Assembly (NCBI GenBank): GCA_965214095.1
Contig: OZ243938.1
Location: forward strand, 736,001-800,000
Reading direction: 5' to 3'
From: Candidatus Poribacteria bacterium
Lineage (GTDB): Bacteria > Poribacteria > WGA-4E > WGA-3G
Length of the DNA stretch: 64,000 nucleotides
Every line of letters starts with the position of its first letter. Within the stretch, counting starts at the first letter, position 1. Below are positions 44,267 to 45,804 of the stretch, piece by piece. A model generated the notes under the pieces. That model saw only the letters and a list, made by a program, of their open reading frames with translations, made no database searches and was not told where the DNA came from. The position numbers and the translations under genes were made by a program.

Positions 44267-45028
44267 TTATTGAGCAGAAATAGAACCTTTAATTTGTCCC
44301 CACCGTGTAGCAAGTTTCCCTTCAGCCTCTACTGACAAAAACGCATCAAAACCATCACCTAATGCGTTGATCTCATCCTCATTGAGTGCTCGTGAAAGAA
44401 TTACAGCATCATCTATTGCACCACCATATCCTTCACCACCTTCACCACCGAGACGGTAGGTTGTATTAGCACCGCGGGTTTCTTGAAAGTCTGTTTCTTT
44501 CGCCAACTTGCCATTAACATATATCCTGTATTTCTTACCATCACTTTGAACGACAGCATGACTCCACTCACCTTGTTTGATGTCACCACCATCGGTTTGG
44601 CATAGGATAGTCCAACCCCCGACTTGTCCTCGCCATGACAATAGACCTTGTACGGAGTTAACAAAGAGAGTATTATGACCTGCGTCACCCGGTAGACTTC
44701 GCCAGATTTGTTGCCATTCTCCACCCTCAAATGTCGGATTGATCCATACAGAAAGAGTAAATGGGTCTGTCTTGAATAGATCCCCATGCAATGTTTCAGA
44801 TACCGTCATCTCAACGTGTGTACCGACATCAAGATGAATTGCTTCTTTAAATTCTCCATTATCCCAATTTGAACCACCTTTAATCACGCCATGGTTTTCG
44901 TTTCCTGATGAATCTTCTGCATCACCATCAAATGAATAGTATGCGACTAAAGCATCTTCTGCTGAAACACCAGTAATCAAGCACATAAGAAAAGCAGAAC
45001 ATGCCAATACAAATAACGTTCTTTTCAT
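44267..45028 (-). CDS. Secreted LamG/concanavalin A-like domain protein with C-terminal TxWGxxK motif
   Basis: Signal peptide, LVAYYSFDG.AEDSSGN, FTLSVWI, WSHAV, YVNG, IDD...RAL; ends VEAEGKLATRWGQIK. Confidence 0.88.
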   Translation of the reverse strand: MKRTLFVLACSAFLMCLITGVSAEDALVAYYSFDGDAEDSSGNENHGVIKGGSNWDNGEFKEAIHLDVGTHVEMTVSETLHGDLFKTDPFTLSVWINPTFEGGEWQQIWRSLPGDAGHNTLFVNSVQGLLSWRGQVGGWTILCQTDGGDIKQGEWSHAVVQSDGKKYRIYVNGKLAKETDFQETRGANTTYRLGGEGGEGYGGAIDDAVILSRALNEDEINALGDGFDAFLSVEAEGKLATRWGQIKGSISAQ

Positions 45029-45092
45029 CTAATCTTCGGGCAGGAGACCCAATCCTTTAGGTTTGGGAGGAATGCCCGCTCCTATGTTTTTC

Positions 45093-45121
45093 TTGACAAT
45101 AAATGTCAAACTTGCTAAAAT
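45093..45121 (+). promoter_or_regulatory. Sigma70-type promoter inside the element
   Basis: TTGACA-17 nt-TAAAAT. Confidence 0.75.
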
Positions 45122-45126
45122 ATATT

Positions 45127-45434
45127 CGGAAAGTTCAATCACACGTAGTCGTGTGTGAGGTTGTCCGCAGTCTTTGGTGCTATATGTTGCGGAGCATAAA
45201 ACTGAAAAACATATACGCTCTCACTACCATAGACACATAACAATTGAGTGGTAGGGACATGGGAGGTAAAAAACCCAGTCCGAAAAACACACTCTCAAAT
45301 AATAAGTTGCTCTTTTAGAGCAAGTGAGGTTGCTTAGAACCCACTGTGGAGACGAAATAAGACGGATGATCCTTTTGGTGAAACGCAACGTCTATGAAGC
45401 ACAAGCCCAACCCTTTAGGTTTGGGTACTATGAC
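45127..45434 (+). ncRNA. Candidate stand-alone omega-RNA (about 300 nt) with structured 5' extension
   Basis: Serial hairpins; 3' core TGTG-G-AGACG...CGTCT-ATGAAG-CACA plus terminal hairpin resembles IS605/TnpB right-end RNA. Confidence 0.6.
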
Positions 45435-45533
45435 CGTATACACTCCTTTTTGATCTCATTTTCAATATATTCTGTGAATTTTCGACACTATAGAAACAAT
45501 TAGACACTTTGTGCAAGTTTTTTTCTTTTAGCA

Positions 45534-45562
45534 ATACTATCACACATAAGAAATAATGTCAA
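45534..45562 (-). promoter_or_regulatory. Native sigma70-type promoter of the LamG gene
   Basis: Minus strand TTGACA-17 nt-TAGTAT; original RBS AAAAGGAG at 45443-45450. Confidence 0.6.
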
Positions 45563-45615
45563 TTTTGGCAGGTGTCTTCAAATTTTAAGGATTCGTAAAT
45601 ATAGAGGTTAACTTT

Positions 45616-45712
45616 CTGTTAAGTCCCTGAATCGGTTCATCACTGAATTTATTGGATATATTGATTCTTGTCTGAACCAAGATTTTCAGGATTAGTAGAT
45701 TTATAGGATTAT
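45616..45712 (+). mobile_element. MITE-like repeat family C (partial copy 2)
   Basis: Shares tcatca.tgaattta.tgg...attgattcttgtctgaac..gatt..caggat with 12981-13074. Confidence 0.7.
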
Positions 45713-45747
45713 GCTTCTGATGTTACAAGGTGGTATTTGAAGATAGA

Positions 45748-45771
45748 CAGCACGCGGAGCGTGCCTACTAC
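45748..45771 (-). repeat. GTAG-type REP (family D)
   Basis: Minus strand GTAGTAGGCACGCTCCGCGTGCTG hairpin. Confidence 0.55.
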
Positions 45772-45804
45772 TATGAATGTAAGGTTTACTAAATTTACTA
45801 AAGA

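What the first reader, a model, noticed from the sequence alone, without database searches (positions are those of the whole stretch)
45093..45455. Promoter-driven stand-alone omega-RNA with an unusual non-coding 5' extension of about 220 nt
Seen: a consensus TTGACA-17-TAAAAT promoter is followed by serial hairpins (tcacacg/cgtgtg, tccgca/tgcgga, ctacca/tggtag, ggac.tggg/ccca.gtcc, ttgctc/gagcaa). The region ends in a TGTG-AGACG/CGTCT-CACA stem plus the terminal hairpin and TGAC. I found no recognisable tnpB C-terminal remnant (no DRD.NAA motif) by eye. Known: TnpB omega-RNAs come from the IS605 right end and take their guide from the downstream flank. Inference: this is a dedicated guide-RNA cassette acting in trans with a TnpB or TnpB-derived regulator. 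Its guide (cgtatacactcctttt...) is antisense to the host gene's original RBS, and it is transcribed convergently against the native promoter at 45534-45562.
Basis: partly seen in the sequence, partly recalled or inferred. Interest (0 to 1): 0.7.

Follow-up and report, generated by a model that had tools for sequence, protein, structure and literature searches.

The report
Guide-RNA-carrying miniature IS605 transposon
This is a 406-base protein-less mobile element of the IS200/IS605 family that carries its own promoter and a TnpB guide-RNA scaffold, a kind already described, but this family lands with odd regularity between a gene's ribosome-binding site and its start codon.

Summary
The feature is the body and right end of a 406-bp non-autonomous IS200/IS605 element (PATE/MITE), window 45029-45434. 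It has four copies at 98.5-100% identity in this genome. It lies 3' of TTCAT with no duplication, and two relatives have the empty site. Its last ~190 nt form a structured RNA with strong covariation: 21 of 40 pairs compensatory, 0 of 500 shuffles as high. The last ~107 nt are homologous to the right ends of TnpB-encoding IS, including the last ~11 codons of tnpB. The promoter is the parent IS's left-end promoter. The lineage-specific leader is ~120 nt, not 220. Contigs from RNA libraries cover the element and run 26-27 nt into a copy's flank. Most likely, TnpA moves the element in trans. Each copy makes a site-specific omega-RNA that a TTCAT-type TnpB uses in trans to re-cut the emptied site. 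PATEs that encode omega-RNAs are already in print, so this is a new member of a known kind. Unexplained: 10 of 10 independent insertions of this family sit between a Shine-Dalgarno and its ATG.

The parts
45024..45028 (+). Target / transposon-adjacent motif TTCAT. Its last three bases are the reverse complement of the host gene's ATG.
   Evidence: All four copies are preceded by (T/C)TCAT. G021 and G032 have TTCAT joined directly to the right flank.
45029..45434 (+). 406-bp non-autonomous IS200/IS605-family element (PATE/MITE, here 'MITE413')
   Evidence: Four copies at 98.5-100% identity plus one solo left end. No target duplication. Empty sites in relatives. No blastx match to any of the 22 TnpB frames of the genome (best E 2.1). 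No ORF longer than 59 aa.
45037..45078 (+). Left-end imperfect hairpin (inner stem CCCAATCC tta GGTTTGGG, 45048-45067), the presumed TnpA recognition structure
   Evidence: Inverted repeat I3 and direct repeat D1 shared with the right end. 86% identical to the left end of the TnpB IS at C1:325900.
45093..45121 (+). Sigma-70-type promoter TTGACA-17-TAAAAT, with predicted start near 45128-45130
   Evidence: Equivalent hexamers are kept in the G022, G025 and G015 homologues but not in G006. The same position in the TnpB IS left end reads TTGACA ... TATACT ahead of tnpB.
45128..45245 (+).
   Evidence: Alignable only with G032 (99%) and G006 (76%). G022, G025 and G015 have a different sequence here.
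45246..45434 (+). Omega-RNA-like scaffold. Helices: H1 45246-50/45290-94, H2 ~45254-62/45273-81, H3-H4 45305-14/45319-25, H5 45326-31/45338-42, H6-H7 45345-54/45389-403, H8 45405-13/45418-26.
   Evidence: RNAalifold on 15 TnpB-less elements gives 40 pairs, 21 with compensatory changes. 97.3% of cells are paired, 0 of 500 shuffles reach the observed values, and slid controls give 2-7 pairs. Coordinates.
45328..45361 (+). Remnant of the last ~11 codons of tnpB (the AAYDPVVEQT* region of the parent), with an in-frame TAG
   Evidence: Alignment with 9 TnpB-linked right ends. The TnpB stop lies 77 nt (ISB type) or 93 nt (ISA type) before the element end.
45405..45426 (+). Right-end hairpin GCCCAACCC tta GGTTTGGGT, followed by ACTATGAC at the cleavage end
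   Evidence: 4 of its 9 pairs show compensatory changes.
45435..45454 (+). Predicted guide (flank CGTATACACTCCTTTTTGAT), antisense to the host 5'UTR including the SD (CTCC at 45443-45446)
   Evidence: Assigned by position next to the right end. Matches the empty site of G021/G032 after TTCAT. Only one 12-nt match in the genome.
44267..45028 (-). Host gene: 253-aa protein with a signal-peptide-like N-terminus, cut off from its SD by the insertion
   Evidence: Orthologues found in 35 of 39 other genomes of the genus.
45534..45562 (-). Native promoter of the host gene (TTGACA-17-TAGTAT), convergent with the element's promoter
   Evidence: The sequence is kept upstream of the uninterrupted orthologues in G032 and G005.

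Best explanation
Window 45029-45434 is a 406-bp non-autonomous IS200/IS605-family element (a PATE/MITE) derived from a TnpB-only IS. It keeps the parent's left end (TnpA hairpin plus sigma-70 promoter) and right end (TnpA hairpin). Between them is a ~190-nt TnpB omega-RNA scaffold in place of the tnpB gene. Shown: it is repeated, it is inserted precisely 3' of TTCAT, its sites are empty in close relatives, it has a promoter-like site, and its 3' half is a conserved structured RNA homologous to TnpB-linked right ends. Inferred: a Y1 TnpA encoded elsewhere in the genome excises and inserts it as single-stranded DNA. Transcription from ~45128 runs through the right end into the flank, so each copy makes an omega-RNA whose guide is its own flank. 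A TnpB made elsewhere, most likely the TTCAT-flanked one at C1:326077-327213, loads that RNA. After TnpA excision, TnpB cuts the restored TTCAT+flank site, so that recombination with the sister chromosome puts the element back. The guide is site-specific, so every copy must carry the scaffold and promoter in cis even though both proteins act in trans. This would explain why protein-less copies keep a covarying RNA.
For: Copies and borders: 4 full copies at 98.5-100% plus a solo left end. All are preceded by (T/C)TCAT and end in CTATGAC. G021 and G032 have the empty site TTCAT|CGTATACACTCC. Ends: the left-end and right-end hairpins share CCCAAnCCtttaGGTTTGGG. The left end is 86% and the right end 78% identical to the TnpB IS at C1:325900-327290, whose own flank is also TTCAT. 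Proteins in trans: 5 Y1_Tnp matches, four of them 138-aa TnpA frames, of which 2 keep the HVH motif. There are 22 TnpB-type matches. The TTCAT-type TnpB hits PF01385 and PF07282 and ISDra2 TnpB structures 8h1j/8bf8 at E 3.4e-38. In the one alignment printed by that call, to the top hit 9yyg (an AI-designed nuclease), the query stretches GIDFG, AAETL and HDRDINAA line up with its GVDLG, AVEDL and HDRDENAA. That these are the RuvC motifs is recalled. RNA: promoter 11 of 12, kept in 4 of 5 diverged lineages. Across 15 TnpB-less elements (14 distinct), 97.3% of cells pair and 21 of 40 pairs have compensatory changes, against 11.1 +/- 1.5 in shuffles (0 of 500) and 2-7 in slid controls. G-U pairs at three positions fit only the + strand. 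The same 3' helices appear in 9 TnpB-linked right ends. Model R1 finds 19 scaffolds in the genome, 5 beside TnpB frames and 14 without. RNA-library contigs cover 45073-45434, 45081-45368, 45128-45425 and 45149-45434 in four runs. In two runs they continue 26-27 nt into the flank of the copy at C1:959174. Guides: none of the four has a second TTCAT-flanked match. Co-occurrence: a TnpB at least 73% identical to the TTCAT-type one was found in 5 of the 6 genomes that hold this MITE type. Literature: a Discussion passage of PMC10055086 states that PATEs often encode omega-RNAs that TnpB from other IS elements would have to act on in trans.
Against: No strand-specific data and no RNA ends. The only expression evidence is contigs from RNA libraries, which cannot show strand, start or end. 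The two studies may be one data set filed twice. Two contigs begin upstream of the -35 hexamer (45073, 45081), so not all of this RNA can start at the predicted promoter. The single-sequence fold is not better than shuffles (z -1.52; 8 of 100 shuffles fold as well). Only the last ~107 nt are sequence-homologous to TnpB-linked right ends. Model R1 scores 162-182 bits on TnpB-less elements but 66-92 bits on TnpB-linked ones. So the upstream helices H1-H4 are not shown to match the part of the omega-RNA that lies inside tnpB. Binding and cleavage by any TnpB are untested. The G006 homologue lacks the promoter, and the best match to this TnpB query in G006 was only 57% identical. Rfam has no model that recognises even the TnpB-linked right ends here, so a curated-model test was not possible.
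Confidence: 0.8

Rival explanations
1. A decaying, functionless deletion derivative. TnpA still moves the element, but the RNA structure is only an inherited relic and no TnpB uses the transcript.
For: Only the last ~107 nt match TnpB-linked right ends. R1 scores are much lower on TnpB-linked ends. One lineage (G006) has lost the promoter. TnpB binding is untested.
Against: Compensatory changes in 21 of 40 pairs among protein-less elements of several sub-families show that selection on the fold continues without a coding constraint. The helices outside the TnpA hairpin have no known role in transposition. The promoter is kept in 4 of 5 lineages. Contigs from RNA libraries cover the scaffold.
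Confidence: 0.08
2. A domesticated guide or antisense RNA that regulates the host gene. The transcript would read out of the right end and pair with the gene's 5'UTR and SD, or it would guide a nuclease-dead TnpB relative to repress the gene.
For: The flank is antisense to the SD at all 10 independent sites. Transcription is convergent with the native promoter.
Against: The insertion already separates the SD from the ATG by 406 bp, so little is left to regulate. The copies are 98.5-100% identical and their sites are empty in the nearest relatives, so the insertions are recent rather than fixed regulators. On the chromosome each guide's match is preceded by TATGAC, not TTCAT, and has no second site. 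The matching TnpB keeps its RuvC motifs. No inactivated TnpB stands next to any copy.
Confidence: 0.05
3. A reversible off-switch. The family is selected, or targeted, to land between SD and ATG. This silences the gene, and scarless TnpA excision restores it. The omega-RNA/TnpB arm sets how often the gene stays off.
For: 10 of 10 independent insertions of this MITE type lie between SD and ATG. 13 of 20 related left ends in four other genomes abut an ATG with at least 98 open codons. The insertion is scarless, as shown by the empty sites. No outward promoter towards the gene was found, and a terminator-like hairpin lies on the minus strand at 45323-45307.
Against: There are no expression data for the host genes and no evidence of excision in a population. 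The pattern could come from target choice alone (TTCAT is the complement of ATGAA, in easily melted AT-rich DNA) with no benefit to the host. This reading adds to the main explanation and does not replace it.
Confidence: 0.07

Closest known systems
Palindrome-associated transposable elements (PATEs) of IS200/IS605 that carry omega-RNAs (Meers et al., preprint PMC10055086; passages read)
   Same: No protein-coding gene. IS200/IS605 left and right ends with hairpins. Multiple copies. The omega-RNA must be used by a TnpB from another IS, and mobilisation is by TnpA in trans.
   Different: Here the scaffold is documented by covariation across at least four protein-less sub-families of one genus. 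The upstream half of the scaffold has no sequence likeness to the tnpB coding region. The family shows a start-site insertion pattern, which the passages I read do not mention. I could not see that paper's Extended Data or supplements.
TnpB omega-RNA of IS200/IS605 elements such as ISDra2 (structure paper PMC10097598 seen in a search listing only; details recalled)
   Same: It lies at the right end and overlaps the last codons of tnpB. The guide is the flank 3' of the element. The adjacent motif equals the TnpA target. The partner protein is a close structural-family relative (8h1j/8bf8, E 3.4e-38).
   Different: The RNA is made from a dedicated left-end promoter ~300 nt upstream, not processed from a tnpB mRNA. 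Most of the region that would lie inside tnpB is replaced by non-coding hairpins.
TldR, TnpB-derived RNA-guided transcription factors (10.1101/2023.11.30.569447; search listing and abstract only)
   Same: TnpB-family guide RNAs that can sit near promoters or 5'UTRs.
   Different: TldR proteins are nuclease-dead and fixed next to their guide. Here no such protein is adjacent, the candidate TnpB keeps its catalytic motifs, and the loci are mobile and polymorphic.
IStrons (10.1101/2023.11.20.567912; passages read)
   Same: IS605/IS607-family elements that lessen or modulate the cost of sitting inside host transcripts, with a TnpB/omega-RNA retention arm. PATE derivatives are shown for them too.
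   Different: No group I intron was detected (Rfam). The host gene reads the element in antisense.

Membership tests
IS200/IS605-family non-autonomous element (PATE/MITE) | Subterminal imperfect hairpins at both ends instead of terminal inverted repeats | tested here: met
   Left end 45037-45078 and right end 45405-45426 share CCCAAnCCtttaGGTTTGGG in the same orientation.
IS200/IS605-family non-autonomous element (PATE/MITE) | Insertion 3' of a conserved 4-5 nt motif without target-site duplication | tested here: met
   (T/C)TCAT precedes all 4 copies. G021 and G032 have TTCAT joined directly to the right flank.
IS200/IS605-family non-autonomous element (PATE/MITE) | No transposase or nuclease gene inside | tested here: met
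   Longest ORF touching the element is 59 aa. blastx against the 22 TnpB frames of the genome gives best E 2.1.
IS200/IS605-family non-autonomous element (PATE/MITE) | Several near-identical copies, and a Y1 TnpA elsewhere with similar end hairpins | tested here: met
   4 copies. 4 TnpA frames of 138 aa, 2 of them with HVH. Their IS ends carry CCCAAGTCtttaGACTTGGG-type hairpins. Whether this TnpA actually acts on these ends is inferred.
TnpB omega-RNA | Lies at the right end and is homologous to the RNA region that overlaps the 3' end of tnpB in full-length elements | tested here: met
   The last ~107 nt are 77-82% identical to TnpB-linked right ends, including the last ~11 codons of tnpB. The same helices occur in 9 TnpB-linked ends.
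TnpB omega-RNA | Conserved secondary structure maintained by compensatory change | tested here: met
   21 of 40 pairs compensatory, 97.3% of cells paired, 0 of 500 shuffles as high.
TnpB omega-RNA | Transcript continues ~16-20 nt into the flank to give the guide | tested here: inconclusive
   RNA-library contigs in 2 of 4 runs run 26-27 nt past the right end of the copy at C1:959174. Contigs show neither strand nor true ends.
TnpB omega-RNA | Bound by TnpB, which it directs to cleave TAM-flanked DNA | not testable with these tools
TnpB omega-RNA | Match to a curated covariance model | tested here: inconclusive
   No Rfam hit for the element, but also none for three TnpB-linked right ends used as a positive control.
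TldR-type RNA-guided regulator locus | Nuclease-inactive TnpB homologue next to a guide that matches a promoter elsewhere | tested here: not met
   No TnpB-type frame lies beside any copy. The guides have no second TTCAT-flanked match. The candidate partner keeps GIDFG/AAETL/HDRD.
IStron | Group I intron at the 5' end of the element | tested here: not met
   No Rfam match at gathering score in the window. Only three chance-level hits at E 1.7-3.5 in 44900-45700.

The most novel reading that the evidence does not exclude
This IS605 lineage, meaning the TTCAT-type TnpB IS and its omega-RNA-only miniatures, picks out translation start regions. It inserts between the Shine-Dalgarno and the ATG far more often than its 5-nt motif and purifying selection can explain. 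This uncouples a gene from its RBS in a scarless, reversible way and automatically gives each copy a guide antisense to that gene's 5'UTR. If so, there is either a still unknown determinant of target choice in IS200/IS605 transposition or a host-level use of these elements as reversible gene switches.
Probability: 0.35. Interest if true: 0.7.

Novelty: new member of a known kind. Interest (0 to 1): 0.45.

Why it matters
On its own, the finding is an ordinary example of a described class: protein-less IS200/IS605 elements that keep an omega-RNA. It does provide a clean natural data set. Several protein-less sub-families in one genus have scaffolds that covary without any coding constraint, which shows which parts of a TnpB guide RNA are needed once it no longer overlaps tnpB. 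In this genome protein-less scaffolds outnumber TnpB-linked ones 14 to 5. This fits the view that guide and nuclease are modular and that retention by homing selects on the guide in cis. The start-site insertion pattern matters more if it holds up. It would bear on how IS200/IS605 transposases choose targets and on what these elements cost or offer the host.

Tried and rejected
Rfam at gathering score over the whole window and at E up to 10 over 44900-45700 gave nothing relevant. Three TnpB-linked right ends were equally blank, so this negative says nothing.

blastx of the element against the 22 TnpB frames of the genome found no decayed coding sequence (best E 2.1).

The single-sequence fold of 45128-45454 gave z -1.52, no better than 8 of 100 shuffles, so I did not use it as support.

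In read laying the flanks 44848-44995 and 45440-45800 had no cover in any of the four runs.

I asked whether the ISA-type TnpB (three copies, right end 82% identical) could be the partner. Its elements are flanked by TTAAC, not TTCAT, so I prefer the ISB type.

The third protein was given with wrong coordinates and turned out to be a flanking amidohydrolase. The intended IsrB-like ORF was redone.

In one search my left-end pattern found no left/right-end pair in 6 of the 7 loci of other protein-less families (L059, L065, L060, L044, L049, L066). These six were dropped from the insertion-site count. The one that was found (G034 L061, 754 bp) is not at a gene start.

Searches for papers on SD/ATG targeting by IS605 elements listed nothing on the subject, judged from titles and the starts of abstracts only. 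I opened none of these papers except 10.1101/2023.11.20.567912, where a term search found no occurrence of 'start codon'. One search failed on a term-syntax error.

I did not use structure prediction, fold search, complex prediction, the large protein searches or the collection scans, because the answer did not depend on them.

Full report
The features are in the sequence where stated. TTGACA (45093-45098), a 17-nt spacer and TAAAAT (45116-45121) match the sigma-70 consensus at 11 of 12 positions, with TG before the -10. The listed hairpins can be read. The unit ends in CTATGAC at 45434. A TTGACA-17-TAGTAT promoter lies on the minus strand at 45562-45534. Rfam gives nothing here. It also gives nothing for three TnpB-linked right ends of the same genome, so that negative carries no weight.

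**What the unit is.**
- The finding starts 64 nt too late. The stretch 45022-45434 matches three other places in the genome at about 99% identity, and there is also a solo left end.
- Aligning the four copies with their flanks puts the borders at 45029 and 45434. Every copy is preceded by (T/C)TCAT and ends in CTATGAC, with unrelated sequence beyond.
- Positions 45029-45092 hold an imperfect hairpin whose core, CCCAATCCtttaGGTTTGGG, recurs in the same orientation at 45406-45425. Matching subterminal hairpins of this kind are the IS200/IS605 end architecture.
- The two nearest relatives with the orthologous gene, G032 and G021 (95% and 94% identical over the gene), have TTCAT followed directly by CGTATACACTCCTTTTT. 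So the insertion is precise, made no duplication, and is recent.
- No ORF touching the element exceeds 59 aa. blastx against all 22 TnpB-type frames of the genome finds nothing (best E 2.1).
- This is therefore a 406-bp protein-less IS200/IS605 element, a PATE/MITE.

**Parents and helpers.**
- The left end is 86% and the last 107 nt are 78% identical to a 1.39-kb TnpB-only IS at C1:325900-327290. That IS is also flanked by TTCAT.
- Its 378-aa frame hits PF01385 and PF07282. It matches the ISDra2 TnpB structures 8h1j/8bf8 at E 3.4e-38. The one alignment that call printed is to the top hit, 9yyg, an AI-designed nuclease; there the stretches GIDFG, AAETL and HDRDINAA line up with the corresponding stretches of the chain. 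That these are the RuvC motifs is recalled.
- A second TnpB IS type (three copies) has a right end 82% identical to the element's. It is flanked by TTAAC and has a different left end, so it is a less likely partner.
- TnpA is present in four tnpA-tnpB elements. Two of the four 138-aa frames keep the HVH motif and two read YVH. Their end hairpins have the same CCCAAnnCtttaGnnTTGGG shape.
- That this TnpA moves the element is an inference.

**The RNA.**
- In the TnpB IS, the tnpB stop lies 77 nt before the element end. The miniature element is homologous from about 30 nt upstream of that point. It thus retains the last ~11 codons of tnpB as DNA, now with an in-frame TAG.
- Full-length homologues of the miniature element were found in G032 (99%; orthologous to the copy at C1:959174), G006 (76%) and G022 (69%). 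Shorter matches in G025 (three copies) and G015 bring the set to eight sequences.
- These sequences, plus further protein-less families in G022, G006, G013, G002, G025, G034 and G000 itself, share a conserved block that corresponds to window ~45235-45434.
- On 15 such sequences (14 distinct), RNAalifold predicts 40 pairs in eight helices, and 21 pairs show compensatory double changes.
- For that structure 97.3% of cells pair. None of 500 column shuffles reaches the observed values (shuffled mean 11.1 +/- 1.5 pairs with double changes). Sliding the partners by 1-3 columns leaves 2-7 such pairs. The structure was derived from the same alignment and the sequences are related, so the controls overstate the case somewhat. 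The margin is still large.
- G-U pairs at three positions fit only the + strand.
- The four 3' helices recur in nine TnpB-linked right ends.
- A covariance model built from the protein-less set finds 19 scaffolds in this genome, 5 beside TnpB frames and 14 without. It scores TnpB-linked ends far lower (66-92 bits against 162-182). So the equivalence of the upstream helices with the part of the omega-RNA inside tnpB is not shown.
- The true lineage-specific leader runs from about 45128 to 45245, roughly 120 nt. It is replaced by other sequence in G022, G025 and G015. With one diverged homologue I cannot test its structure.
- The promoter hexamers are kept in G022, G025 and G015 (displaced in G015) but not in G006. 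The TnpB IS has TTGACA ... TATACT at the same place ahead of tnpB. The promoter is therefore inherited, not acquired.

**Expression.** Four RNA-library runs, from two studies that may be one data set, hold contigs identical to the element over 45073-45434, 45081-45368, 45128-45425 and 45149-45434. In two runs the contig continues 26-27 nt into the flank of the copy at C1:959174. This fits an RNA that reads through the right end into the guide. Contigs show neither strand nor ends, and two of them begin upstream of the -35 hexamer.

**How it most likely works.** Each copy makes an omega-RNA whose 3' end is its own flank. On the chromosome that flank is preceded by TATGAC, so it is not a target. 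After scarless excision by TnpA it is preceded by TTCAT, so it becomes one. None of the four guides has another TTCAT-flanked match in the genome. That fits homing and retention, not regulation of a distant site. [quoted passage not shown] The Discussion of their preprint states that PATEs often encode omega-RNAs which TnpB from other IS elements would have to act on in trans (PMC10055086, passages). A PATE derived from an IStron is also shown in 10.1101/2023.11.20.567912 (legend passage). A TnpB at least 73% identical to the TTCAT-type one was found in 5 of the 6 genomes that hold this miniature type. G015's copy has an internal TAG, and in G006 the best match was 57%. Related genomes are not independent, so this counts for little.

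**The unexplained part.**
- TTCAT is the complement of ATGAA. All four copies in this genome sit exactly between the ATG of a minus-strand gene and its Shine-Dalgarno.
- Three of the four N-termini look like signal peptides and one looks like an ECF sigma factor; these are judgements by eye. All four right flanks carry the SD complement 7-12 nt from the junction.
- The same holds for 6 of 6 independent sites in G006, G022, G025 (three) and G015. That makes 10 of 10.
- In chromosome C1, 1,074 of 28,704 YTCAT sites (3.7%) have an ATG with at least 80 open codons and an SD 4-mer at -17 to -4. For TTYTCAT the figure is 7.5%.
- With crude gene calls, 946 YTCAT sites are at called starts, 22,340 are inside genes and 5,422 are intergenic. 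Even if every intragenic insertion were purged, only about 15% of the remaining sites would be starts.
- The distance to the SD varies, which looks like real start regions and not a fixed DNA motif.
- The bias extends, less strictly, to the TnpB IS itself. Of 20 related left ends fetched from G032, G007, G003 and G020, 13 abut an ATG followed by at least 98 open codons, against 15% expected.
- In G032 one of these, a 1,386-bp TnpB IS, occupies the very site (the ECF-sigma-like gene start) that the miniature element occupies in G000.
- An insertion here should cut the gene off from its RBS. I found no outward promoter towards the gene, and there is a terminator-like hairpin on the minus strand at 45323-45307. 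So simple tolerance is not an obvious explanation.
- I found no paper on such targeting (titles and abstract starts only).
- I cannot tell whether the cause is target choice, for example easily melted AT-rich DNA, or selection, for example a reversible switch.

**Verdict.** It is an omega-RNA unit that works in trans, but as part of a mobile PATE, which is a kind already in print. Supplements of the cited papers could not be seen.

Noticed in passing
window 45024-45448; G000 C1:5082155, 3279134, 959174; loci L029, L031, L041, L057, L058, L062: All 10 independent insertions of this miniature-element family lie exactly between a Shine-Dalgarno and the ATG of a gene on the opposite strand. Only 3.7% of YTCAT sites in the chromosome have that context.
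   Followed up: partly
L079 (G032:C4:742215-744155) versus G000 C1:3279134-3279546: The same site, the start of an ECF-sigma-like gene, holds a 1,386-bp TnpB IS in G032 and the 406-bp miniature element in G000. Flanks are 91-96% identical. This is either site re-use or replacement by recombination through the shared ends.
   Followed up: partly
window 45037-45078 and the same stretch of the other three copies: The left-end hairpin has a 6-nt mismatch bubble (AGGAGA opposite AGGAAT) in the window copy and the copy at 5082155. The copies at 3279134 and 959174 each have a perfect hairpin, corrected to one arm or to the other, as if by templated repair within the hairpin.
   Followed up: no
G000 C1:915772, 2163221, 3328848, 5062942, 2068294: A second protein-less family (~340 bp, five copies at 97-100%) has a related left end, its own TTGACA promoter and a (T/C)TCAC flank. 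Its right end resembles that of the tnpA-tnpB IS. Model R1 does not hit it.
   Followed up: partly
G000 C1:173948, 1931291, 2601006, 4128125, 4220959 (L019:410-1504): Five copies of a ~1,275-bp element with a related left end and TCAT-type flanks in 4 of 5. It encodes, on the reverse strand, a 364-aa protein with PF14239 RRXRR (E 2.4e-35) and no HNH hit, so it looks IsrB-like.
   Followed up: partly
G000 C1:2385597-2386022 and 2170024-2170449: Two of the four TnpA frames read YVH where the other two read HVH (the HUH motif), so they are possibly inactive transposase copies.
   Followed up: no
window 45307-45323, minus strand: The TTGCTC/GAGCAA hairpin, read on the minus strand, is followed by a T-rich run and scores as terminator-like. 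It would stop transcripts from the host gene's native promoter before they reach the ATG.
   Followed up: no
G000 contig C2 (32,066 bp): This contig has 64% G+C against 41% for the 5.2-Mb chromosome. It may be foreign DNA, a plasmid or a binning contaminant.
   Followed up: no
G000 C1:2451771, 2759589, 3207780, 3362215, 3413998: Five frames of 478-549 aa with a Cas12f1-like TNB domain match, all containing MKERLNISAQ or a close variant near the N-terminus. This is a larger TnpB/Cas12-like family that I did not examine.
   Followed up: no
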